A stretch of 10,294 nt of DNA from a virus, in UHGV virus genome UHGV-0227205, one strand, 5' to 3'. Shown here piece after piece: positions 1 to 10,294 of this stretch. The translations under genes and the position numbers were made by a program. Every line of letters begins with the position of its first letter. The stretch's first letter is position 1. The notes below the pieces were generated by a model. It saw only the letters and a list, made by a program, of their open reading frames with translations. It was not told the origin of the DNA and made no database searches.

Positions 1-2
1 CT

Positions 3-218
3 GCCACCCCGTGTCAGCAGGGAGACTGCGTCATCCACCGGGCGCGTCAGGGACCAGGCTTTATTGCTCTGCTTGGTGCTGGCCCGGCATTCCAGGTCAT
101 AAAAGACAGTCTGACACTGGGGCTGAATGCGCTGACGTTAACTGATATCACTAAAAATGCCGCGTACGGCGTCGATATCGGCAGCCTGGTGCTGGAAATC
201 AATAATCCCGCAGCATAA
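3..218 (+). CDS. Hypothetical protein, C-terminal fragment (5' end outside window)
   Basis: Frame 3 is open from the first base of the window to TAA at 216-218 (71 codons, no in-frame stop; the other two plus frames hit stops at about 97 and 143). Same strand as the R-like gene and 23 bp upstream of it; an AGGAG-like RBS for R (227-231) follows its stop. No family recognised from the fragment (ends ...SLVLEINNPAA). In P2 synteny this position is the lysis-gene end of the operon, but the fragment does not look like an Rz/LysB coiled coil. Confidence 0.3.
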   Translation, partial: ATPCQQGDCVIHRARQGPGFIALLGAGPAFQVIKDSLTLGLNALTLTDITKNAAYGVDIGSLVLEINNPAA

Positions 219-241
219 GGAAGAGCAGGAGAGCAAAACAG

Positions 242-709
242 ATGCTTAAGACAAACAGTCTGCGAGAGTCCATGCTTCATGGGTGTCGGTGGTGCCAGGC
301 TAATCCCGAGAAATTCACCATTTTCGTGGAGAGCGGCAACATTGAAACGACCGGAGAAGCGCCCTCGTTTGTTTACCGCTATCAGATGGTGATGTTTGTC
401 ATGGATTACGCCGGAGAGCTGGACGACCTCACGCTGCCGCTGCTGGCGTGGTTATCCGAAAATCAGCCACAGTTGTTGCTCAATCCGGAGCGTAATCAGG
501 ACATCAAATTTTCTGCCGTTATCAATGACGATGACAGCGCCGATCTCCTGTTTACGCTCCCCCTGCGGGAACGCGTTCGCATCACGCGCAACAGTCAGGG
601 CACACCGCAGGCAGAACACCTGCCGGAGCCAAAACCCCGTCTGCCTTCTTCCGAAGGCGACTGGTCGCATGTATTCCAGGATGTGACGTGGGGTGAAAGC
701 GATGGATAA
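242..709 (+). CDS. R: P2 gpR-like tail completion protein
   Basis: 155-aa ORF with ATG at 242 preceded by an AGGAG-like RBS. N-terminus MLKTNSLRE... and length resemble P2 gpR as I recall it. Sits immediately upstream of S-V-W-J-I-H in P2 gene order. Stop overlaps the next start (ATGGATAA). Confidence 0.7.
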   Translation: MLKTNSLRESMLHGCRWCQANPEKFTIFVESGNIETTGEAPSFVYRYQMVMFVMDYAGELDDLTLPLLAWLSENQPQLLLNPERNQDIKFSAVINDDDSADLLFTLPLRERVRITRNSQGTPQAEHLPEPKPRLPSSEGDWSHVFQDVTWGESDG

Positions 710-1337
710 GGCATTCACCCGCGTGGATGAAACCTTTGAGGCTATCCGCGACAGCCTGAATCAGCAGGCCATCAATAACATCGCCAGAAAGCTGGCACAG
801 GATTTACGTCGCGCCCAGCAGGCACGTATCCGGTCACAAAAAGCGCCGGACGGGACCGAATGGACACCACGCAGACGCCGCGTAACCCGGATACAGGAGC
901 GCATTCGCTTTATCTGGAATAACGAAGCACGCACGCTGAAAAACTGGCATCACGACACAGGGAAATACGGGCGAACCATTACCGGGTGGGATGAGGATAA
1001 AAACAATATCCGCACGTTTTACCGGGATGACATCGACCGTTTTCTGGAAATACGCACCCGGCGCATCAACCAGGACAGCACAAAGCGCGTCCCCATGTTC
1101 GTAAAACTGCGCACCGCCCGCTACCTGAAAGCCCGTGCAGATGCCTCCGGTGTGACGGTGGGTTACAGCGGCGTGGCCGCACGTATTGCACGCGTTCATC
1201 AGTTCGGTGAGCGCGATCAGGTTGCGCCGGGCATTTTCACCGATTACCCGGTACGTGAGCTGTTGGGTATCAGCCAGGCAGATGAGCGCCTGATTTATAA
1301 CACGGTGCTGGGCCGGATTGCGGAGGCTGTACGGTGA
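702..1337 (+). CDS. S: P2 gpS-like tail completion / virion morphogenesis protein
   Basis: ORF in P2-syntenic position between R and V. ATG at 702 overlaps the R stop; an alternative GTG start at 693 is possible. Basic, Arg-rich protein. Family assignment is by synteny and size rather than recalled motifs. Confidence 0.65.
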   Translation: MDKAFTRVDETFEAIRDSLNQQAINNIARKLAQDLRRAQQARIRSQKAPDGTEWTPRRRRVTRIQERIRFIWNNEARTLKNWHHDTGKYGRTITGWDEDKNNIRTFYRDDIDRFLEIRTRRINQDSTKRVPMFVKLRTARYLKARADASGVTVGYSGVAARIARVHQFGERDQVAPGIFTDYPVRELLGISQADERLIYNTVLGRIAEAVR

Positions 1338-1915
1338 GCGCAGAACTCATGCGACTGCTGAGCAACATCATCCGCACCGGGATCATCTCTGAAGTTGATG
1401 AGAAGTCCTGGCGCGTGCGCGTTCGCAGCGGCGAACTGGAAACAGGCTGGTTGCGCTGGAACACCACGCGCGCGGGAGCCTTCAATGTGTGGCTGCCGCC
1501 ATCACCAGGCGAACAGGTGGTAATTGCCTGCATTGGCGGCAACCCGGAAACCGCCATGATAATTGGCAGCCTGTGGAGTGATGCCAGTCCGGCCCCCGGC
1601 AAAAGCCTGAAAGAAATCGTGGTCAGCGCGCCGGATGGCGCGGTGTTCCGCTACGACGCAGACGCTGGCGCACTGAGCGCCAGCGGCATGAAAACAGCCA
1701 CCCTGCAGGCATCCGTCAGCGTGACACTGGATACGCCCGTCGTGGAATGCACAAACCTTCTGAGAACGGCGACGCTTGACGTCACAAAAGAGGGAAAGAT
1801 GAGCGGCAATATCACGCACAGCGGCGGCAATTTCACCTCAAACGGCATTACCGTGCATACGCATAAGCACGGTGGCGTTAAAGGTGGCAGCGATTCGACA
1901 GGAGGCCCGCAGTGA
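1334..1915 (+). CDS. V: Baseplate assembly protein V (spike/hub), P2 gpV-like
   Basis: 193-aa ORF; GTG start at 1334 overlaps the S stop (GTGA), with an alternative ATG at 1349. Motifs ...IRTGIISEVDE..., GWLRW, PSPGEQVVI, C-terminal GITVHTHKHGG and Gly-rich tail match P2 gpV as recalled. Syntenic with W-J-I. Confidence 0.9.
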   Translation: MSAELMRLLSNIIRTGIISEVDEKSWRVRVRSGELETGWLRWNTTRAGAFNVWLPPSPGEQVVIACIGGNPETAMIIGSLWSDASPAPGKSLKEIVVSAPDGAVFRYDADAGALSASGMKTATLQASVSVTLDTPVVECTNLLRTATLDVTKEGKMSGNITHSGGNFTSNGITVHTHKHGGVKGGSDSTGGPQ

Positions 1916-2262
1916 CAACCCGCTACACAGGAATGAACCCGGACGGGACGGGAAACCTGAACGATATGGAGCACCTGAAACAGTCAGTCAGGGACATCCT
2001 GATCACCCCGCTGGCAAGCCGGGTTATGCGACGGGAATATGGCAGCCTTGTGCCTGATTTGATTGACGAACCCATGAATAACACCACGCGTCTGCAATGC
2101 ATGAGTGCTGCCGTGATTGCGCTGACACGATGGGAACCCCGCATTGCCCTGGACGCCATCGACGTTGTCTGGAAGGCAGGAGGCCGCGCCGGGGTGACGC
2201 TGTCGGGCACTGTCATGCAGACCATGCAGAATGTTGAATTAACCATCACGCTGAGAGAGTAA
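1912..2262 (+). CDS. W: Baseplate wedge protein W (GPW/gp25 family), P2 gpW-like
   Basis: 116-aa ORF; GTG start overlaps the V stop (GTGA). MTTRYTGMN..., VMRREYGSL and WEPRI motifs match P2 gpW as recalled. Confidence 0.9.
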   Translation: MTTRYTGMNPDGTGNLNDMEHLKQSVRDILITPLASRVMRREYGSLVPDLIDEPMNNTTRLQCMSAAVIALTRWEPRIALDAIDVVWKAGGRAGVTLSGTVMQTMQNVELTITLRE

Positions 2263-2265
2263 ATC

Positions 2266-3162
2266 ATGCCTGCTGTTGATCTTTCCCAGTTACCGGAACC
2301 CGCCATCATCGCGGAGCCTGATTTTGAGGCAATTCTGGCTGACACAAAGGCCATGATGATTGCGTCCTATCCTGCCGAACAGCGTGAAGCCGTCTCCGCC
2401 GCGCTGGAGCTGGAATCAGAACCCCTGAACGTTATCGCTCAAACCATGTCGTTTCGTGAAATGCTGTTACGCCAGCGGGTTAACGAGGGCGCACGCGCCT
2501 GCATGTTAAGCCACGGTTCAGGGACAAACCTGGACAACCTCGCGGGCAATATGAACACAAAGCGCCTGGTTATCACTCCGGCAACGGATACCACCGACGC
2601 GGTGATGGAGAGCGACACCTCGCTGAGACTGCGGGCGCAGCGGGCGTATGACGGCCTGAGTGTTGCTGGCCCGTCAGGTGCATACGAGTATTTTGCACGC
2701 AGCGCCAGCGGTCTGGTGCGTGATGCGCGGGCCATCAGCCCGTCTCCGGCCTGTGTGACGGTTTCCATTCTGTCCACTGAAGGCGACGGCACAGCAACGG
2801 AGGCGTTGCTTAATACCGTTCGCGCCGTTCTGAATGCAGAGGATACCCGCCCGGTGGCCGACCGACTGACCGTACAGAGCGCCAGCATCGTGACATGGCG
2901 GCTGAATGCAAAACTGTACTTTTACCCCGGCCCGGAATCCGAACCTATTCTGGCTGCGGCTGAATCGTCGTTCAGGAAGTGGCTGGCTGAGCAGGGGCTT
3001 ATTGGTCAGGACGTGGCGTTGTCAGCCATTGCTGCCGCACTTCATGTGCACGGCGTGCAACGCGTGGAGATAATCGAACCCACACAGAATATGGCCATCA
3101 GCGACATACAGGCGGCGCGCTGTGAGTCATTCACCATCAGCGAAGGTGGGCGTAATGAGTAA
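2266..3162 (+). CDS. J: Baseplate assembly protein J (gp6-like), P2 gpJ-like
   Basis: 298-aa ORF starting 3 bp after the W stop. MPAVDLSQLPEP..., LESEPL, RQRVNE, SPSPACVT, RPVADRLTVQSA, YFYPGPESEPI and LHVHGVQRVEI match P2 gpJ as recalled. Stop overlaps the I start (ATGAGTAA). Confidence 0.9.
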   Translation: MPAVDLSQLPEPAIIAEPDFEAILADTKAMMIASYPAEQREAVSAALELESEPLNVIAQTMSFREMLLRQRVNEGARACMLSHGSGTNLDNLAGNMNTKRLVITPATDTTDAVMESDTSLRLRAQRAYDGLSVAGPSGAYEYFARSASGLVRDARAISPSPACVTVSILSTEGDGTATEALLNTVRAVLNAEDTRPVADRLTVQSASIVTWRLNAKLYFYPGPESEPILAAAESSFRKWLAEQGLIGQDVALSAIAAALHVHGVQRVEIIEPTQNMAISDIQAARCESFTISEGGRNE

Positions 3163-3685
3163 TTCACTGTTACCGCCATCAGCCAGCAATTTCATGCGTT
3201 GCGCCGAAGCTGTCGGAGCGCGCATTACAGACATCCCGGTAGACCTCAACACGCTGTGGTCACCGGACACCTGCCCGGTGCATCTGCTGCCTTATCTCGC
3301 CTGGGCATTTTCCGTTGACCGCTGGGATCGCAACTGGCCGGAAGAGACAAAGCGACAGGTGATTCGTGATGCATGGCTGATACACCGACACAAAGGGACC
3401 ATCAGCGCACTGCGCCGGGCCATTGAGCCGCTGGGATACCTCATTCGCGTGTCTGAGTGGTGGGAGTTCGGCGGAGAACCGGGAACATTTACCGTTGAAG
3501 TCGGCACGCTGGACAGTGGCGTGACGGAGGAAATGTATCTGGAAATGGAGCGGTTGATTGCTGATGCCCGCCCGGTCAGCCGCCACATGACAGGGCTGAA
3601 TATCATTCAGGAGATTCAGGGAGATATTTTCGCGGCGGCAGCAACTTACGACGGCGAAGTCATTACCATTTATCCGGACGATTAA
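3155..3685 (+). CDS. I: Baseplate/tail protein I, P2 gpI-like
   Basis: ATG at 3155 overlapping the J stop; the longer track ORF from 3122 is probably an upstream extension. Motifs LWSPDTCPVHLLPYLAWAFSVDRWD, HRHKGTISALRRAIEPLGYLI, EMERLIADARP and YDGEVITIYP match P2 gpI as recalled. Confidence 0.9.
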   Translation: MSNSLLPPSASNFMRCAEAVGARITDIPVDLNTLWSPDTCPVHLLPYLAWAFSVDRWDRNWPEETKRQVIRDAWLIHRHKGTISALRRAIEPLGYLIRVSEWWEFGGEPGTFTVEVGTLDSGVTEEMYLEMERLIADARPVSRHMTGLNIIQEIQGDIFAAAATYDGEVITIYPDD

Positions 3686-3687
3686 GC

Positions 3688-5031
3688 ATGAGTACCACAA
3701 CACGTAAATTTAAAACCGTTATCACCGATACGGGTGCCAAAAAATTAGCTCAGGCAGCCGCGCCAGATGGTAAGCCTGTCCGCCTGACTCATATGGCCGT
3801 GGGCGACGGTGGCGGCACGTTGCCCACACCAGACAGTAAGCAGACCCGTCTGGTGCATGAGGTGTGGCGACATACTGTTAATCGCGTCATCCTGGACGCA
3901 ACACATCAGAACCGCATTATTGCGGAGCTGGTTATTCCTCCTGAAACGGGCGGATTCTGGATCCGGGAAATTGGTGTATTTGATGAGCACGGCGATTTAA
4001 TCGCGGTGGGCAATACTGCCGAAAGTTACAAGCCAGCCGTTGCCGAAGGGTCCGGTCGTGCACAAACATTTCGCACCATTCTGACCGTATCCAGCACTGC
4101 CACCGTGGTGCTTACCGTGGATAACACCATGGTGATGGCCACAGTGGATTACGTGGATGACAAACTGAAAGAGCATGAACAGTCACGACGTCACCCGGAC
4201 GCCTCGCTGACCGCAAAAGGCTTTGTTCAACTCAGTAGCGCCACTAACAGCGTGTCTGAAACGCAGGCTGCAACGCCGAAAGCAGTAAAGGCCGCGTATG
4301 ACCTTGCTAACGGTAAATATACTGCGCAGGATGCCAGCACGACGCGAAAAGGCCTTGTCCAGCTCAGTAGCGCCACCAACAGCACGTCTGAAACGCAGGC
4401 TGCAACGCCGAAAGCAGTAAAGGCCGCGTATGACCTTGCTAACGCAAAATATACCGCTCAGGACGCCACGACGGCACAAAAAGGGATAGTCCAGCTCAGT
4501 AGTGCCACCAACAGCACGTCTGAAACACTGGCCGCGACATCGAAAGCTGTTAAGGCGGTAATGGATGAAACGAACAAGAAAGCGCCCTTAAATAGTCCTG
4601 CACTGACCGGAACGCCAACAACACCAACTGCGCGACAGGGAACGAATAATACCCAAATCGCAAGCACGGCTTATGTTATGGCTGCGATCGCTGCCCTCGT
4701 GGACTCGTCGCCTGACGCACTGAATACGCTGAACGAGCTGGCTGCGGCGTTGGGCAACGACCCGAATTTTGCGACCACCATGACTAGCGCGCTTGCGGGT
4801 AAGCAACCGAAAGATGCCACCCTGACGGCGCTGGCCGGGCTTGCTACTGCGGCAGACAGGTTTCCGTATTTTACGGGGAATGATGTTGCCAGTCTGGCAA
4901 CCCTGACAAAAGTTGGGCGGGATATTCTTGCGAAATCGACCGTTGCCGCCGTTATCGAATACCTCGGTTTACAGGAAACGGTAAACAAGGCTGGTAACGC
5001 CGTTCAGCGTTCCGGCGCATTACCGCCTTAA
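3688..5031 (+). CDS. H: Tail fibre protein H, P2 gpH-like, apparently 3'-truncated (constant N-terminal part only; possible pseudogene)
   Basis: 447-aa ORF starting 3 bp after the I stop. N-terminus (..TVITDTGAKKLAQA..MAVGDGGG..EVWRH..IIAELVIPPE..GGFW.RE.G..D..G.LIAV.N.AESYKP..AEGSGR..) matches the P2 H attachment domain. It then has three tandem repeats and a ...GIVQLSSATNSTSETLAAT.KAVKAVMDETNKKAPL...ALNTLNELAAALGNDP...VIEYLGLQETVNKAGNAVQ segment shared with lambda Stf. Recognisable sequence stops at 5007, then 7 codons (RSGALPP) and TAA. P2 H is about 670 aa as I recall, so the distal receptor-binding part appears to be missing, and no G gene follows. Confidence 0.85.
   Translation: MSTTTRKFKTVITDTGAKKLAQAAAPDGKPVRLTHMAVGDGGGTLPTPDSKQTRLVHEVWRHTVNRVILDATHQNRIIAELVIPPETGGFWIREIGVFDEHGDLIAVGNTAESYKPAVAEGSGRAQTFRTILTVSSTATVVLTVDNTMVMATVDYVDDKLKEHEQSRRHPDASLTAKGFVQLSSATNSVSETQAATPKAVKAAYDLANGKYTAQDASTTRKGLVQLSSATNSTSETQAATPKAVKAAYDLANAKYTAQDATTAQKGIVQLSSATNSTSETLAATSKAVKAVMDETNKKAPLNSPALTGTPTTPTARQGTNNTQIASTAYVMAAIAALVDSSPDALNTLNELAAALGNDPNFATTMTSALAGKQPKDATLTALAGLATAADRFPYFTGNDVASLATLTKVGRDILAKSTVAAVIEYLGLQETVNKAGNAVQRSGALPP
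4198..4563 (+). repeat. Tandem direct repeat, 132-bp (44-codon) unit, 2 full copies plus 1 partial, in frame within H
   Basis: Copy 1 at 4198-4329 (DASLTAKGFVQLSSATNSVSETQAATPKAVKAAYDLANGKYTAQ), copy 2 at 4330-4461 (DASTTRKGLVQLSSATNSTSETQAATPKAVKAAYDLANAKYTAQ), copy 3 at 4462-4563 (DATTAQKGIVQLSSATNSTSETLAATSKAVKAVM, then diverges into DETNKKAP). Copies are near-identical at nucleotide level by eye. Confidence 0.9.
4480..4563 (+). repeat. Inverted repeat, left arm (H repeat core KGIVQLSSATNSTSETLAATSKAVKAVM)
   Basis: 84 nt at 4480-4563 align codon for codon with the reverse complement of 5018-5101 (stf KGIVQLSSATNSTSESLAATPKAVKAVM). I count 70/84 identical, with the last 15 nt (GTTAAGGCGGTAATG) identical. 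Confidence 0.8.
4952..4977. other. Candidate Din-family (Gin/Cin/Pin/Hin-type) invertase crossover site, orphan
   Basis: TTATCGAATACCTCGGTTTACAGGAA at 4952-4977. As I recall, Mu gixL is TTCCTGTAAACCGAGGTTTTGGATAA; its reverse complement TTATCCAAAACCTCGGTTTACAGGAA differs from the window at 2 of 26 positions. The site is 12-bp half-sites around a central TC dinucleotide and lies inside the H codons VIEYLGLQE. No second site in inverted orientation and no invertase gene were found in the window by eye. Confidence 0.6.
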
Positions 5032-6496
5032 CCGCTTTTGGCGTTGCCGCCAGTGACTCGGAAGTGCTGTTGGTCGCACTGCTGAGCTGTACTATCCCCT
5101 TTTTCGTCGTGCTCGCATCCTCAAGCGCCACGGCGGATGCAATATCCTCTGCCCGTTTTGCCGCTGTCTCGGCGCGCGTTGCCGCGGATTCCGCCGTACT
5201 TTTGCTCTGAGCTGCCGCCGTCGCACTGCCAGCTGCCTCTGTCGCCTTCGTGGATGCCGTCGTGGCGCTGCCCTTTGCTGCTGACGCCTGTCTGGTCGCC
5301 TCATCTTTTGAAGCAGACGCAGATGATGCCGATGACGCCGCTGAACTGGCTGACGATGCGGCTGCCGCCTTAGAGGAAGCAGCATTGTCTGCTGAAGTCT
5401 TTGCATTTGTTTCAGAGGTTTTTGCTGCAGAAGCAGACCTCGCTGCTGCAGTGGCTTGCTCAGTGGCTTTGCCAGCCTTCGTTGTGGCTGTTGAAGCGGA
5501 TGATGCGGCGCTTTCTGCCGATTTTCCGGCGGCGGTGGCACTGGCTGAGGCCTGCCCGGCACTTGTTGACGCGGCACTGGCAGATAATGCAGCCGCTGTT
5601 TTTGAACCTGCCGCAGCTGAGGCGCTCTGTCCCGCTGCTGTTTCAGAAGACTTAGCGTTCGTCTCGGACGTTTTTGCCGCCTTCGCGGAATTTCCTGCCG
5701 CCGTTGCCGAGGAAGCTGCACTACTGGCACTTGATGATGCATTCGTTTCTGAAGATTTCGCTGCCTCTTTTGAGGCCGCCGCACCCCGTGCCGAGGTGGC
5801 AGCTTCTGACGCCTTCGTGGTCGCTGTGGATGCAGAAGTGGCTGCCGATTTTTGTGATGCTGCGGCATTCGTTTCTGACGTTTTCGCGGCACTGGCGCTG
5901 GTAGCTGCCGCGCTTTTTGATGACTCTGCAGCAGCAGCACTTTTTGCTGCTTCACGGGCCTTTGTCGATGCCGTTCCTGCGCTGGAAGACGCTGACTGAG
6001 CCGACGACGCGGCCTGTCCGGCTGACGTGCTGGCGGCACGTGATGAGGCTGCAGCATCGGTTGCATGAGTTGCCGCCTCGCTGGCTGATGCACTGGCATC
6101 GCTGGCTGATTTTTTCGCGGCTGCCGTATTCTGTGCAACCGCGGAGGCGTTACGTGACACCTCTTCTACCATCTGCTCAAAGCGGCGCAGTGCCTCCGGT
6201 CGTACATCATCCTCCGTCATGGCACCGAGAAAATCATTCAGCGTACCTGGTCTGGAACCTTCATAGACGGTAATGGTCCCGGCATGTGAAGGCGGAAAAC
6301 CTTCAACCAGCAGGGTGACGCTGTACTGACCATGCTCAACATCCATGCTGTAACGTCCGGCTTCATCCGGATTTTCAGAGGCCACCGTGTTCACCACCAC
6401 CGTGCTGCTGGTTCGTCTGGCCTTCAGCACAATGGTGCAGTTCTGTACTGGTTTTCCTGTGCCATCTTTAAGCACGCCAGAAATTTTTACTGTCAT
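4952..6496 (-). CDS. stf: Side tail fibre protein, lambda Stf-like, apparently 3'-truncated (N-terminal and shaft part only; possible pseudogene)
   Basis: 514-aa minus-strand ORF with ATG at 6494-6496 and a GGTGGA RBS. N-terminus MTVKISGVLKDGTGKPVQNCTIVLKARR...YSMDVEHGQYSV...GFPPSHAGTITVYE...GTLNDFL is almost identical to lambda Stf as recalled. It continues into the Ala/Ser-rich shaft with KTSETNA repeats and then ...AVALEDASTTKKGIVQLSSATNSTSESLAATPKAVKAVM. The last 21 codons (RRNAERRYQPCLPFPVNRGIR) are the antisense of the H 3' end, not Stf sequence. Lambda Stf is about 770 aa as I recall; the C-terminal receptor-binding part and tfa are absent. Confidence 0.85.
   Translation of the reverse strand: MTVKISGVLKDGTGKPVQNCTIVLKARRTSSTVVVNTVASENPDEAGRYSMDVEHGQYSVTLLVEGFPPSHAGTITVYEGSRPGTLNDFLGAMTEDDVRPEALRRFEQMVEEVSRNASAVAQNTAAAKKSASDASASASEAATHATDAAASSRAASTSAGQAASSAQSASSSAGTASTKAREAAKSAAAAESSKSAAATSASAAKTSETNAAASQKSAATSASTATTKASEAATSARGAAASKEAAKSSETNASSSASSAASSATAAGNSAKAAKTSETNAKSSETAAGQSASAAAGSKTAAALSASAASTSAGQASASATAAGKSAESAASSASTATTKAGKATEQATAAARSASAAKTSETNAKTSADNAASSKAAAASSASSAASSASSASASKDEATRQASAAKGSATTASTKATEAAGSATAAAQSKSTAESAATRAETAAKRAEDIASAVALEDASTTKKGIVQLSSATNSTSESLAATPKAVKAVMRRNAERRYQPCLPFPVNRGIR
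5018..5101 (-). repeat. Inverted repeat, right arm (stf KGIVQLSSATNSTSESLAATPKAVKAVM)
   Basis: Reverse complement of 5018-5101 matches 4480-4563 at about 83% identity. The arm begins exactly where recognisable stf coding sequence ends (ATG codon at 5018-5020 on the minus strand). Confidence 0.8.
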
Positions 6497-6510
6497 ACTT
6501 TTCCACCAAT

Positions 6511-6544
6511 AAAAAAAGCCCGCAGCAGTGACGCCACGGGCTTC
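6511..6544 (-). terminator. Putative intrinsic terminator downstream of lom
   Basis: On the minus-strand transcript: stem AGCCCG (revcomp of 6537-6542), 14-nt loop, stem CGGGCT (revcomp of 6517-6522), then a run of 7 T (revcomp of the A-run 6511-6517). Stem is short with a large loop, so strength is uncertain. The stf RBS follows directly. Confidence 0.5.
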
Positions 6545-6647
6545 AGGACAGTGTAACTTTACGTTTCCTCAAACGCAGTTCACCCCATAAGGTGGATGAA
6601 CCTGCGTATCATAACAATATTTACAGAAGATAAATCGGCGTCTGTTG

Positions 6648-7247
6648 TCAGAAACGGTATCCGATACCAACAATAAATGCATCCGTTCGCCAGTCGCCAC
6701 TACCGGAACCTTCATAAGCAAGGTCAATGGTCACGGATTCGGTCGGGTTAAACTGCACGCCAGCCCCCCACGCCAGAGACGTGTTGCTGTGGCGACCGTC
6801 ATCACTTCCGGTCAGCACATCGTGCTTTTTCCCCTTGTTGTCAGTTACGCGAAGATAATCCCCGGAGAAAGTCGACACACGGCTGTAAGCCACACCCGCC
6901 ATCGCATACGCGCTGAACCATTCATTCACGCGCACAGACGGCCCCGCCATTACGCTGAACCAGCGGTTACGAACGGAATCTTCATGCCAGCGGGTATCGC
7001 TGTAACGGGTCAGCTGGCGATTCTTGTCTCCTGCATAGCTGAACGACGTCTCCAGCCCCAGTGTGTCCGTAAACTCATAACGGTATTTCACGTTAATCCC
7101 GTTCAGATCATCACTGCCGGGAACGTTCGTCGAGGCATGAAGATAGCCCGCGCTCAGCGTGGACTGATGTTCAGACGCCCATGCAGGCGCACCGGATACG
7201 GCCAGACAGATGGCTGCGGACAAAATGGCGGCATAAAGTTTACGCAT
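6648..7247 (-). CDS. lom: Outer membrane beta-barrel protein Lom (Ail/Lom/PagC/Rck/OmpX family)
   Basis: 199-aa ORF with ATG at 7245-7247 and a GAGAGG RBS. Signal peptide MRKLYAAILSAAICLAVSGAPAWA with AWA cleavage motif. C-terminus ...LAYEGSGSGDWRTDAFIVGIGYRF closely matches lambda Lom as recalled and ends in an aromatic residue typical of OM beta-barrels. Sits in the lambda J-lom-stf position. Confidence 0.9.
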   Translation of the reverse strand: MRKLYAAILSAAICLAVSGAPAWASEHQSTLSAGYLHASTNVPGSDDLNGINVKYRYEFTDTLGLETSFSYAGDKNRQLTRYSDTRWHEDSVRNRWFSVMAGPSVRVNEWFSAYAMAGVAYSRVSTFSGDYLRVTDNKGKKHDVLTGSDDGRHSNTSLAWGAGVQFNPTESVTIDLAYEGSGSGDWRTDAFIVGIGYRF

Positions 7248-7268
7248 AATTACCTCTCGCTTTTCTGC

Positions 7269-7296
7269 AATAAAAAAGGCGTCATTCCTGACGCCC
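7269..7296 (-). terminator. Putative intrinsic terminator between J and lom
   Basis: On the minus-strand transcript: GGCGTCA-GGAA-TGACGCC hairpin (7-bp GC-rich stem, 4-nt loop; plus coordinates 7277-7294) followed by TTTTTTATT (revcomp of 7268-7276). Lies 22 bp after the J stop and before the lom RBS. Confidence 0.7.
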
Positions 7297-7317
7297 TTTA
7301 TTGGGGTTATAAATATT

Positions 7318-10294
7318 TCAACGAATACTGATGCCGGAAGCGGCTTTTTTGGTCACAATCACCGTACAGTCGGTGATATTGCCTGCCCCCTGATTGCCTT
7401 TCTGGAAAATCTTAAACTCCAGAGTGACGCTTCCCCTGCCACTCGGCATATCAATAACTGCACTGTAACTACCGGGAATGGCCCCTTTAGTTTCTCTGGA
7501 TGCGATTAATACGCCGTTTTTGCGAACTTCAAAACCATAACCCGTGTATCGCGTGCCTCCTGGGTTATTTCCGCTCCCCGGATCGTCATACGCTATACCG
7601 TTAAAAATAATGGGCGGAATAATAATCTGGCGGTCAAAGTTATGATCATCGCTGATGGTGACTGTAACCGTACCGTTTGGTGTTTCCGTGTTACCCCACG
7701 TACCGACTTTTTTCGGGAAGGCTTTTGATACAGCTTTAACGAAATCTCCTCTGACCTGGGTCGCCTCCAGCATGCCCTTAATCGTACAGTTCTGGTTAAT
7801 CGTGACATTGTTGAGCGTTCCTGAGTTCGCATTCACACTGCCACTGATATCCACATTTTTCGCCGTCAGTCTCCCGTCTGATGTCAGGGAAAATGCCGGA
7901 GGATTACCGCCGCTGGTAATGGTGGGGGCCGTCAGGCGTTTCAGGAACACTTCATTCATGAATATCTGATCGCCCTGACCAACAAACATCGGCTTTGTGT
8001 TGCCATTCGCAGGATTAATCATCGCAATCCTGTCTGCCGCCAGCAGCACCTGACTCTGCATTCCTGCTGGCGTATTCTCAATACCGGCACCGATACCCGC
8101 AATATAAAGGCGTCCGTCCTGCATCTGCTGCAGTTTCACGGCCCACATGCTGTTCAGGTTATTATTTGTATCAACCTGAACTTTCTGTATCTGCTGGATT
8201 GCCGCACTCTGATTTTCCAGTTTTTTATTGACGGTCTGCGTGATTTCATTGCTGACATTCGTAATGGACGTCCTGATTTCAGCCAGGTCCGGCGCAAGCT
8301 GACCGTTATCAATCTGCGTCCACAGCTCCTGGGCCAGATGTGTTTTCCCGATTTCTCCTTTGAAAAAATCCAGGTAACCTTCCGCATCATCGCTCGCCCG
8401 ACCGACAGCCTCCACGAATGCCGATTTGCCAACAGTATTCACACTGCGGATATAAAAATAATAATCATGGCCCGGTTTGATATTGATACTGGCAGCTATC
8501 CAGTACAGCGCCGAGCCAAGATAGCGGGCTGCGGTTTCAACCTGCCTGATATCCGCAATCCGCTTTTCCGAGAACCAGAACTCAAACTGTACCGTCGGGT
8601 CATAAACGGCAAGATGTGGCGTTGCGGTTATCTGAAAATAGCCCGGCGTCAGCTCAATCCGCGACGGTGCTGCCGGTGCGGCAATCCGGAAGGTGGTGGT
8701 GGCAGGTTCACCCTGCTGGCCATAGCTGTTTATCGCCCGCACCGTCAGGGTGTATTCCCCGAGCGGCAGGCCGCTGAAACGGTGCTCCGTGTCTGCGGTG
8801 ATGGCGGTGGTCACCAGTCTGGCATCCGTTCCCTTACCACTGGTCAGGCGCAGACTGAAGCGCACACCCTTCACCACCCGCGGCGTGTCCCATTTCGCCT
8901 GCGCCAGATACTGGCCGTCAGCTGCGCTCACCTCCACCGTCAGGTGCTGCACTGCCGGTGGGATGACGCTGTTCAGGGAACCTGACTGCGGCTCAAAGCG
9001 GGCACCGTTATCCACGATGGCTTCTTTTTCCGGTACGTGCTGCACCGCCGTGATGGCAAAGGTGCCGTCCGTGTTTTCCCGGATGGAGACACAGCGGAAC
9101 AGGCGACGGCGCAGTGACGGCAGGGAGAGTCCCCACACCCCGTATGTCTCCACACCATCAGGCAGGGTACTGACCTGTATCCGGTCCGGCGCGGGGTGTG
9201 CGGTGATGTCCACACTCACCGGCTTACCGCTGCCGTTAATCAGGTTCACCGCCGATGTACCTGTCTCCGGCAGGGTAACCTCACGGTCCAGCGTCAGGGT
9301 GCGGGTGGCAGCATCAATGGACAGGACACGTCCGCCGGTCAGGGTCCCGGCATAGTCATTATCACAGATTTCAATAATGTCACCGGGTGTGTGCCGCAGC
9401 CCCTGAGACCCGAGCGTGAAATCCACCGTCTGCGTTTCCAGCAGTTCGGTCTTTATCACCCACAGTCCGGCACGGTGGGCCTGACCGCGGCTGGTACAGC
9501 CGAACGCGTCCATCTTCAGCAGGTTGCGTCCGTAGCGCAGTATGGCTTCCGGGTCTTCCACCAGTTCCGTGGAGGTCTGCCAGCCGTTCTGCGGGTCGGT
9601 GTAATTCACCTCCACCGCCGTGTGCCGGTCCTTCAGGGCACTGAAGCTGTAGCGGAATCCCACGCCGTTATCATCCACCACCACATCGCTGTTGGTGTAC
9701 GGCCACACCACATCCGACGGGCGGTCCTGAACGAACGTCAGCGTCTGACCGTTCCATACCGGCATACAGCGCATCGCAGAGCAGAAATCACTGAGAACGT
9801 CCCACGCCTTACGCTGTTGTGCCAGGTACGCATTAAAGGTCATCCGCGGCTCGGTCCCCCCGAAACCATCCGGGACCGTCTGGTCGCAGTACTGCCCGAT
9901 GGCATACAGCGCCCACTTGTCCACATCCGCCGCCCCCAGACGTTTTCCCATGCCGTAGCGCGGGTGAGTCAGCATGTCCCACAGACACCAGGCCGGGTTG
10001 TTGCTGTATGCCGGTTTCAGACTGCCGTCCCAGATACCACTATACGTGCGTTTTTCCGGGTCATAGTTTGACGGCACCTGGATGATGCGACCGCGGATAT
10101 GGTAGTTCACCGTCATCTGCTGGCCGCCGAACTGCTCCGCATCCACCTGCAGCCCCACAATGGCCGTGTTCGGGTAGCACTGTTTCACATCGATGATTTC
10201 GGTGTATGACGACCACAGCGTCTTATTCTGCAGCTGGTCCGTGGTGCTGTCCGCCGTCTCCCTGACCATCCGGATGTTAAAGGGCCGGGGAGGC
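7318..10294 (-). CDS. J: Host specificity / tail tip protein J, lambda J-like (central tail fibre); 5' end outside window
   Basis: Minus-strand frame open from the window end (translation ...[44 protein letters not shown]...) to the stop at 7318-7320, at least 992 codons. Long stretches ([191 protein letters not shown]) match lambda J as recalled. The ATG at 10267-10269 is internal, not the start; lambda J is about 1130 aa. Confidence 0.92.

What the first reader, a model, noticed from the sequence alone, without database searches (positions are those of the whole stretch)
242..10294. Myovirus (P2-like) baseplate module and siphovirus (lambda-like) tail-tip module arranged back to back
The plus-strand genes R-S-V-W-J-I-H belong to a contractile-tail baseplate, while the minus-strand J-lom-stf belong to a lambda-type non-contractile tail tip. 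These cannot be parts of one virion tail. So the window spans either two adjacent prophages or remnants in opposite orientation fused within their fibre genes, or a composite degraded element. The P2 genes expected after H (G, sheath FI, tube FII, E, T, U, D) and the lambda genes expected after stf (tfa) are missing on the respective sides. Flanking sequence would show whether either element is still inducible.
Basis: partly seen in the sequence, partly recalled or inferred. Interest (0 to 1): 0.5.

Follow-up and report, generated by a model that had tools for sequence, protein, structure and literature searches.

The report
Two known prophage tails joined end-to-end
The window joins the baseplate genes of a P2/P88-type contractile-tail prophage to the tail-tip genes of a lambda-type prophage. 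These two well-known E. coli ST131 prophages normally lie about 520 kb apart, the join inside their shared tail-fibre sequence occurs in no other sequence searched, and it may be a private rearrangement or an assembly chimera.

Summary
R-S-V-W-J-I-H of a P2-family myovirus lie on the + strand, and J-lom-stf of a lambdoid siphovirus lie on the - strand, converging inside their fibre genes.

- **Identity.** Bases 78-4672 are 100% identical to ST131 prophage Phi1 (P88-like, next to serS). Bases 4566-6872 and 7961-10294 are about 100% identical to ST131 prophage Phi4 (lambdoid, next to trp). In reference genomes the two are about 520 kb apart.
- **The join.** There is a homologous switch from Phi1 H to Phi4 stf within 4566-4672. 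There is also a blunt non-homologous join at 5017|5018. This leaves a 454-bp fibre piece inverted relative to stf; the piece carries the Phi4 26-bp invertase crossover site at 4952-4977. Both fibre genes are truncated (H 447 aa, stf 514 aa).
- **A second join.** Another blunt inverted join lies at 77|78.
- **Uniqueness.** None of the three joins occurs in 5,426 complete E. coli genomes, GTDB representatives, IMG/VR or JGI metagenomes. The normal junctions are common.

This is not one tail. It is a secondary fusion or chimera of two known prophages. I put roughly 50% on artefact and 40% on a real private rearrangement. Novelty and interest are low.

The parts
1..77 (-). Antisense fragment (gene coordinates 1442 down to 1365) of the 625-aa DUF6645/SASA-esterase moron gene. 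It is 100% identical both to the Phi1 copy and to the paralogue in the Phi4 lysis region.
77..78 (.). Junction J1: a blunt inverted join (1-3 nt microhomology) between esterase-gene coordinates 1365 and 1738. Found in no other sequence searched.
78..218 (+). Last 47 codons of the Phi1 DUF6645 gene
242..709 (+). P2 gpR-type tail completion protein
702..1337 (+). P2 gpS-type virion morphogenesis protein (the ORF is open from 693)
1349..1915 (+). gpV baseplate spike (the ORF is open from 1334)
1912..2262 (+). gpW/gp25 baseplate wedge protein
2266..3162 (+). gpJ (P2) baseplate protein
3155..3685 (+). gpI (P2) baseplate protein (the ORF is open from 3122)
3688..5031 (+). Truncated hybrid fibre gene H' (447 aa, against 740 aa in Phi1). 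It is Phi1-type up to at most 4672 and Phi4-type from at least 4566, and it ends 4 codons past J3.
4460..4563 (.). Left arm of a 104-nt, 80% inverted repeat formed by the fibre-repeat ends of H and stf. Its inner 15 nt, GTTAAGGCGGTAATG, are perfect.
4566..4672 (.). Junction J2: the 107-nt interval, identical in both parents, within which the sequence switches from Phi1 H to Phi4 stf
4564..5017 (+). The 454-bp fibre cassette piece ('B' plus the first 40 nt of the variable part). In Phi4 it directly follows stf-N in the same orientation; here it is inverted relative to stf-N.
4952..4977 (+). 26-bp Din-family invertase crossover site TTATCGAATACCTCGGTTTACAGGAA, identical to EC958 Phi4_5prime. It has no partner site in the window.
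5017..5018 (.). Junction J3: a blunt inverted join with no microhomology. Phi4 position L002:12418 is joined to the reverse complement of L002:11964.
5018..5121 (.). Right arm of the 104-nt inverted repeat
4952..6496 (-). Truncated lambda-type side tail fibre stf' (514 aa, against 1132 aa in a normal relative). It is authentic up to residue 493, followed by 21 out-of-context residues and a stop inside the crossover site.
6648..7247 (-). lom (Ail/Lom outer-membrane protein), intact at 199 aa
7318..10294 (-). Lambda-type tip attachment protein J. The N-terminal roughly 170 codons lie beyond the window.
6873..7785 (-). Patch (lom N-terminal part through the J C-terminal receptor-binding end) that differs from ST131 Phi4. 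It is 100% identical to metagenome contig L006 and 98.8% identical to the bioA-side lambdoid prophage of strain ZH193.

Best explanation
The window is a secondary fusion of two separate, already described prophages. It is not one phage tail and not a functional unit.

The left half is the tail-completion, baseplate and fibre block of the P88-like (Peduoviridae, P2 family) prophage known as Phi1 in E. coli ST131. The right half is the J-lom-stf tail-tip block of the lambdoid prophage known as Phi4. Both prophages carry the same fibre cassette: H-type fibre repeats, a 26-bp Din-invertase crossover site and an invertible C-terminal segment. The join lies inside that shared cassette.

Reading left to right, Phi1 H switches by homology into the Phi4 copy of the cassette somewhere in 4566-4672. 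It runs through the Phi4 crossover site and 40 nt of the Phi4 variable part. At 5017|5018 it is joined bluntly, in inverted orientation, to the end of the Phi4 stf N-terminal part.

Consequences (inferred). H loses its receptor-binding C-terminus and its chaperone, so a P2-type particle from this locus would lack fibres and be non-adsorbing. stf is also truncated, but lambda-type tails can use J alone. Neither module can serve the other.

Origin (not decidable from the window). The join is either a strain-private rearrangement between two co-resident prophages or a chimera made during library preparation, assembly or finishing. I lean slightly to the second.
For: Gene content. Bases 78-4672 are 100% identical to Phi1 of strain 4/4 (L009). 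Bases 4566-6872 are 99.9-100% identical to Phi4 (L002), bases 5018-8015 are 100% identical to a normal lambdoid contig (L006), and bases 7961-10294 are 100% identical to L002. In ST131 genomes the two elements lie at about 961 kb and about 1484 kb on opposite strands. Forde et al. 2014 (PMC4134206) describe Phi1 and Phi4, their invertible fibre segments and their near-identical crossover sites; the Phi4_5prime site equals window 4952-4977. The switch interval is bounded by 22 Phi4-specific mismatches before 4566 and 12 Phi1/P88-specific mismatches after 4672. The blunt fold-back at 5017|5018 is shown. No phage genome and none of the fetched IMG/VR fibre loci holds both halves. No complete E. 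coli genome holds both halves within about 5.6 kb of each other.
Against: The flanks of the source contig are unknown, so I cannot show that the remaining parts of either prophage are elsewhere or absent. Nothing in the window proves the fusion is non-functional; that follows from what is known of P2 H/G and lambda stf/tfa. The two junction-spanning ORFs stay open for a few codons, which I take to be chance.
Confidence: 0.88

Rival explanations
1. The join exists only in the sequence record. It would be a chimera from library preparation (strand-switch or fold-back chimeras as in multiple-displacement amplification), from low-coverage metagenome assembly, or from contigs clipped at repeat borders and abutted in the wrong orientation.
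For: There are three private junctions within 5 kb, each flanked by sequence 100% identical to known prophages. Two are blunt inverted joins whose partner points lie only 373 and 454 nt apart in the parent gene, which is fold-back geometry on the scale of a library fragment. All breakpoints lie at or near the borders of sequences shared by Phi1 and Phi4: the fibre cassette and a 447-nt exact esterase repeat. J1, J2 and J3 are all absent from 5,426 complete genomes. J1 and J3 are also absent from GTDB representatives, IMG/VR and JGI metagenomes, and the J2 base combination is absent from the IMG/VR loci fetched here. The junction-spanning proteins are not on record. The normal junctions occur in 30 and 34 IMG/VR contigs. 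E. coli lacks classical end-joining (general knowledge).
Against: Graph assemblers cannot create a blunt antisense join without reads that contain it; there is no shared k-mer at J3 or J1. A test of de Bruijn edge boundaries gave no single consistent k. I have no read data.
Confidence: 0.5
2. The join is a real, strain-private chromosomal rearrangement between co-resident Phi1 and Phi4. Recombination in the shared fibre cassette would have brought the two tail modules together. It could be homologous, or an inter-prophage exchange at crossover sites catalysed by the Phi1 invertase. An illegitimate deletion or inversion then removed the invertible segment and one arm. Alternative topologies are a tandem-duplication joint or a circle made of the Phi4 late region plus the 4.9-kb Phi1 block.
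For: There is a precedent in a complete genome. In strain 4/0 a P2-like prophage at serS and the Mu-like prophage Phi2 have exchanged at their fibre crossover sites. One invertible segment is flanked by two fibre-gene 5' half-sites (L012 2401+/4468-). Another is flanked by two invertase-side half-sites (L062 9668+/11780-). The roughly 45 kb between them, including dmsABC to aroA, is inverted, giving two baseplate modules tail to tail. The Phi1 invertase is thought to act in trans on Phi4. Both flip states of the Phi4 segment occur in nature. The contig runs straight through the fibre repeat as if it were single-copy.
Against: In the ST131 reference orientation, neither homologous recombination nor invertase action between Phi1 and Phi4 can give a tail-to-tail product; both give co-oriented hybrids (my derivation). 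The homologous switch maps to 4566-4672 and the blunt join to 5017|5018, so neither lies at the crossover-site centre at 4964/4965. J3 and J1 still need two separate illegitimate events, and neither resembles an invertase quasi-site (own sequence comparison; site scans). No precursor arrangement exists in 5,426 genomes.
Confidence: 0.4
3. Two intact or remnant prophages integrated next to each other independently, and the window merely spans their border.
For: Convergent orientation and the absence of host genes between them are what a tools-free reading would suggest.
Against: There is no attachment site, integrase or host DNA between them. The border lies inside both fibre genes, with 454 bp of one gene inverted. 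Both elements have fixed, distant insertion sites next to serS and next to trp/ompW in every genome examined.
Confidence: 0.03
4. A single phage with a hybrid tail that uses both a P2-type baseplate and a lambda-type tip.
For: None beyond co-location.
Against: No record among 50,697 phage genomes and no IMG/VR locus fetched has both halves. Both fibre genes are truncated at the join. Contractile and non-contractile tail tips are alternative structures (general knowledge).
Confidence: 0.01

Closest known systems
E. coli ST131 prophage Phi1 (EC958; next to serS), a relative of phage P88 (Xuanwuvirus, Peduoviridae)
   Same: Window 78-4672 is 100% identical to Phi1 of strain 4/4 and about 97% identical to phage P88. 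It has the same R-S-V-W-J-I-H order and the same DUF6645 moron upstream of R.
   Different: H is cut at residue 444 and carries Phi4-type sequence from at least 4673. The window lacks tfa, the invertible segment, the invertase, sheath, tube, tape measure, D and ogr. A piece of the moron gene is inverted at the left edge.
E. coli ST131 prophage Phi4 (EC958; lambdoid, next to trp/ompW)
   Same: stf-N, part of lom and most of J are 99.9-100% identical. The 26-bp Phi4_5prime crossover site is identical.
   Different: There is no ISEc12 in lom. The region from the lom N-terminus to the J C-terminus comes from another lambdoid lineage. stf is broken after AVKAVM (residue 493), and the next 454 bp are inverted. 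tfa, the alternative fibre ends and the truncated invertase are missing.
Din-family invertible fibre systems (Mu G/Gin, P1 C/Cin, e14 P/Pin)
   Same: The crossover site has the same 26-bp architecture and lies inside the fibre gene at the border between the constant and variable parts.
   Different: Only one site is present, with no invertase and no alternative ends. The join here is not at the crossover dinucleotide.
Inter-prophage inversion in E. coli strain 4/0 (P2-like prophage at serS crossed with Mu-like Phi2)
   Same: Two unrelated prophage baseplate modules end up tail to tail around a fibre cassette in an ST131-type genome.
   Different: There both recombinant junctions are clean crossover sites with a complete 2067-bp invertible segment between them, and both partners are myoviruses. 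Here the segment is gone and the joins are illegitimate.
Mosaic homology between P2 H, lambda stf and other fibre genes (from memory: Haggard-Ljungquist et al. 1992; Sandmeier 1994, the latter cited)
   Same: A shared fibre module between a myovirus and a siphovirus provides the recombination substrate.
   Different: The classical cases are in-frame, co-oriented exchanges that yield working fibres. This one is antisense and truncating.

Membership tests
P2-family (Peduoviridae, P88-like) tail/baseplate module | Collinear R-S-V-W-J-I-H genes with the corresponding Pfam families | tested here: met
   all seven families above their cut-offs; same order in Phi1 and P88.
P2-family (Peduoviridae, P88-like) tail/baseplate module | Complete fibre H with its chaperone (G/tfa), plus sheath, tube, tape measure, U and D in the same element | tested here: not met
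   H is 447 aa against 740 aa in Phi1. None of the other genes is in the window. Their presence elsewhere in the source genome is unknown.
Lambda-type tail tip (J-lom-stf-tfa) | gpJ with FNIII, Ig, tip and C-terminal receptor-binding domains, followed by lom and stf | tested here: met
   The same order appears in L002, L003, L004 and L005.
Lambda-type tail tip (J-lom-stf-tfa) | Full-length stf followed by tfa | tested here: not met
   stf is 514 aa, with only 493 authentic residues, against 1132 aa plus tfa in L005.
Din-invertase invertible fibre cassette | 26-bp crossover site inside the fibre gene | tested here: met
   Window 4952-4977 is identical to EC958 Phi4_5prime.
Din-invertase invertible fibre cassette | A second site in inverted orientation, alternative fibre ends with chaperones, and an adjacent invertase gene | tested here: not met
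   Only one match at up to 3 mismatches and up to 8 substitutions. No recombinase or tfa family appears among the ORFs.
Single hybrid phage genome | Both modules present together in an isolated phage or viral contig | tested here: not met
   No phage record covers at least 80% of the window; the listed records (15 of 319 shown) match only the P2-type or only the lambda-type half. No IMG/VR locus fetched has both halves, and the junction is absent from IMG/VR.
Recombination product of the invertase at crossover sites | Parental sequence changes exactly at the central dinucleotide (4964/4965) | tested here: not met
   The Phi1-to-Phi4 switch lies in 4566-4672 and the inverted join lies 40 nt beyond the site.
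Genuine chromosomal arrangement (not chimeric) | Junctions supported by reads or seen in an independent assembly | not testable with these tools
   No reads are available. The junctions are absent from every collection searched.

The most novel reading that the evidence does not exclude
The join is real and records an exchange between a myovirus prophage and a siphovirus prophage through their shared invertible fibre cassette. The two loci would have been brought together by homology or by the Phi1 invertase acting in trans, and the product then resolved by illegitimate deletion. If so, fibre-switching cassettes act as hot spots that rearrange the host chromosome and inactivate two prophages at once.
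Probability: 0.35. Interest if true: 0.35.

Novelty: already known. Interest (0 to 1): 0.15.

Why it matters
The finding matters little for phage biology. Both prophages, their invertible fibre segments and their near-identical crossover sites were described in 2014, and fibre genes are the classical site of phage mosaicism.

The practical value is as a caution. A back-to-back pair of incompatible tail modules should first be read as a prophage-prophage junction or a chimeric contig. Prophage predictors would probably call this one element.

If the join is real, it adds one example of fibre cassettes driving rearrangement between co-resident prophages. The cleaner example is the strain 4/0 inversion seen in passing.

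Tried and rejected
1. Invertase crossover as the joining event. Rejected: the parental switch maps to 4566-4672 and the blunt join lies 40 nt past the site.
2. Invertase quasi-sites at J1 or J3. The half-sites match the consensus at only 3-4 of 12 positions (own sequence comparison; scans).
3. One simple inversion of 78-5017. The inferred parent would have two unnatural junctions (derivation).
4. Homologous recombination between the inverted Phi1 and Phi4 copies. This explains P-B-C but always gives co-oriented hybrids, never the antisense join.
5. De Bruijn graph misjoin. There is no shared k-mer at J1 or J3, and the breakpoint offsets from the repeat borders (60, 57, 15 and -2 nt) fit no single k. 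The left piece is 77 nt long, which matches SPAdes k=77, but the right window end shows no repeat border.
6. Blunt restriction-like cuts. The four breakpoints share no motif.
7. My early idea that the sheath-to-U block of Phi1 is an inversion. Dropped, because phage P88 has the same native order.
8. Searching for the source contig or an independent copy. Exact junction scans of GTDB, IMG/VR and JGI, and exact look-ups of both junction proteins, all returned nothing.
9. Searching for a P2-type H allele that natively carries the Phi4-type bases. The best match in complete genomes is 97.2%, and none was found in the IMG/VR loci.

Full report
**1. What is in the window**

On the + strand lie:
- gpR (242-709)
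- gpS (702-1337)
- gpV spike (1349-1915)
- gpW/gp25 (1912-2262)
- baseplate J (2266-3162)
- gpI (3155-3685)
- a fibre gene with the P2 collar N-terminus and Phage_fiber_2 repeats (3688-5031)

On the - strand lie a lambda-type stf N-terminus (6496-4952), lom (7247-6648) and lambda-type gpJ (from the window end to 7318). The two fibre ORFs converge and overlap by 80 nt. No chaperone, sheath, tube or tape-measure gene is present.

**2. Whose genes they are**

Against 5,426 complete E. coli genomes, no genome holds both halves together. Each half alone is common.
- Bases 78-4972 match a P2-like prophage next to serS at 99.6-99.7% in ST131 genomes.
- Bases 5018-10294 match a lambdoid prophage next to trp/ompW in the same genomes.
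- In strain 4/4 the two lie at about 961-966 kb (genes on the - strand) and about 1478-1487 kb (genes on the + strand).

These are prophages Phi1 and Phi4 of EC958 (Forde et al. 2014, PMC4134206). [quoted passage not shown]

Base by base:
- Window 78-4672 is 100% identical to Phi1 of strain 4/4.
- Window 4566-6872 is 99.9-100% identical to Phi4.
- Window 5018-8015 is 100% identical to a metagenome contig (L006) in which stf continues normally.
- Window 7961-10294 is 100% identical to Phi4.

Among isolated phages, the left half is about 97% identical to phage P88 (Xuanwuvirus). The right half is about 88% identical to lambdoid phages such as mEp332. No phage record has both.

**3. Anatomy of the join**

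Three-way alignments show where the sequence changes parent.
- The window carries Phi1/P88-type bases up to 4565. Phi4 differs at 22 positions between 4464 and 4565.
- The window carries Phi4-type bases from 4673. Phi1 and P88 differ at 12 or more positions between 4673 and 4787.
- The sequence therefore switches from Phi1 H to the Phi4 fibre cassette by homology within the 107 nt at 4566-4672. I call this junction J2.

The sequence then continues as Phi4 through the crossover site TTATCGAATACCTCGGTTTACAGGAA (4952-4977). This site is identical to EC958 Phi4_5prime. It then runs 40 nt into the Phi4 variable part.

At 5017|5018 it is joined, with no microhomology, to the reverse complement of Phi4 at the point where stf-N ends (after AVKAVM; L002:11964). 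I call this junction J3.

In Phi4 the 454 bp now at 4564-5017 follow stf-N directly in the same orientation. Here they are inverted relative to it. They are flanked by a 104-nt, 80% inverted repeat formed by the homologous repeat ends of H and stf (4460-4563 and 5018-5121). The inner 15 nt of that repeat are perfect.

H' ends after 447 aa and stf' after 514 aa, of which 493 are authentic.

**4. A second odd join**

Window 1-78 is 100% identical to an internal piece of the 625-aa DUF6645/SASA-esterase moron gene that precedes R in Phi1, but in antisense. From base 78 onward the same gene resumes in sense 373 nt further downstream. I call this junction J1; it has 1-3 nt of microhomology.

Both points lie inside a 447-nt run that is exactly shared with the esterase paralogue in the Phi4 lysis region. 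The 78 nt can therefore be read in two ways:
- as an in-place inversion within Phi1, or
- as Phi4 sequence in its native orientation.

Under the second reading, the 4.9-kb Phi1 block is flanked on both sides by Phi4. That would indicate a circle or a tandem joint made of the Phi4 late region plus the Phi1 block.

**5. Are the joins seen anywhere else?**

No. J1, the exact J2 combination and J3 are all absent from the complete genomes. J1 and J3 are also absent from GTDB representative genomes, IMG/VR and JGI metagenomes, and the J2 combination is absent from the IMG/VR fibre loci fetched here. Neither junction-spanning protein is on record.

As positive controls, the normal stf-N|B and B|variable-part junctions occur in 30 and 34 IMG/VR contigs. 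Of the 16 contigs that show both junctions, 14 have them on the same strand (unflipped state) and 2 on opposite strands (flipped state). L002 and L006 are the two flip states of the same Phi4 segment.

**6. What it is**

It is not one tail. It is a fusion of the tail modules of two distinct, known prophages inside the fibre cassette they share. The following steps are inferred from established knowledge of P2 H/G and lambda stf/tfa/J:
- The P2-type fibre lacks its receptor-binding end and its chaperone, so it cannot work.
- The lambda side fibre is also dead, but lambda-type tails can adsorb through J alone.
- Neither module complements the other.

**7. How it arose**

I could find no single legitimate event that gives this structure.
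- Homologous or invertase-mediated recombination between inverted copies always yields co-oriented hybrid genes.
- The switch is not at the crossover dinucleotide.
- The blunt joins do not resemble invertase quasi-sites.

Two origins remain.

*(a) Artefact, about 0.5.*
- There are three private junctions in 5 kb, each between perfectly conserved flanks.
- Two are blunt fold-back joins with offsets of 373 and 454 nt.
- All breakpoints lie at or near the borders of sequence shared by Phi1 and Phi4.
- This is what strand-switch chimeras, or contigs clipped at repeats and abutted, would look like.
- Against this, graph assemblers need reads that contain such joins, and no consistent k-mer signature was found.

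*(b) Real private rearrangement, about 0.4.* A complete genome gives a clean precedent. In strain 4/0, a P2-like prophage at serS and the Mu-like Phi2 have recombined at their fibre crossover sites.
- One invertible segment is flanked by two fibre-gene half-sites.
- Another is flanked by two invertase-side half-sites.
- The roughly 45 kb between them is inverted, so two baseplate modules lie tail to tail.

A similar Phi1-Phi4 intermediate followed by a deletion would give the window. It would need further illegitimate events and a different starting orientation, and no such intermediate exists in 5,426 genomes.

**8. Verdict**

Both elements and the shared cassette are already known. Novelty and interest are low.

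Noticed in passing
window 1-78 (junction at 77|78): The left edge holds 78 nt of the DUF6645/SASA-esterase moron gene in antisense, joined bluntly to the same gene 373 nt downstream. The piece is 77 nt plus one shared base, which equals a common assembler k-mer size.
   Followed up: partly
L011/L012/L062 (E. coli strain 4/0, NZ_CP023849.1, about 955-1006 kb): A P2-like prophage at serS and the Mu-like prophage Phi2 appear to have recombined at their fibre crossover sites. One invertible segment lies between two fibre genes (sites at L012 2401+/4468-). Another lies between two invertase genes (L062 9668+/11780-). The intervening roughly 45 kb, including dmsABC to aroA, is inverted. This is a clean inter-prophage inversion.
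   Followed up: partly
window 6868-6872 versus L002 7587-10106: In ST131 Phi4, lom is interrupted by ISEc12, which is absent here. Identity to Phi4 drops from 99.9% to about 85% exactly at the IS insertion point and recovers at 7786.
   Followed up: partly
window 6873-7785: The lom N-terminal part and the J C-terminal receptor-binding domain come from another lambdoid lineage. They are 98.8% identical to the bioA-side prophage of ST131 strain ZH193 and 100% identical to metagenome contig L006. This looks like a natural host-range patch.
   Followed up: partly
L002 12353(+)/15459(-) and L006 3387: The Phi4 invertible segment is found in both orientations in public sequences (14 unflipped and 2 flipped among IMG/VR contigs) although the Phi4 invertase is truncated. 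This is consistent with inversion in trans.
   Followed up: partly
L009 18047-19924 and L013 2562-4415: The Phi1 DUF6645 gene and the Phi4 SASA esterase share 87% identity, with an exact 447-nt run. This is a second inverted repeat pair between the two prophages, besides the fibre cassette.
   Followed up: partly
window 4212-4556: There are two copies of a 132-nt (44-aa) unit at 86% identity inside H. These are the Phage_fiber_2 repeats, and the same motif forms the inverted repeat with stf.
   Followed up: no
L009 3005-3805 versus L010 16334-17434: The gpD-like gene of ST131 Phi1 is 266 aa, against 366 aa in phage P88. Phi1 may therefore be defective independently of this junction.
   Followed up: no
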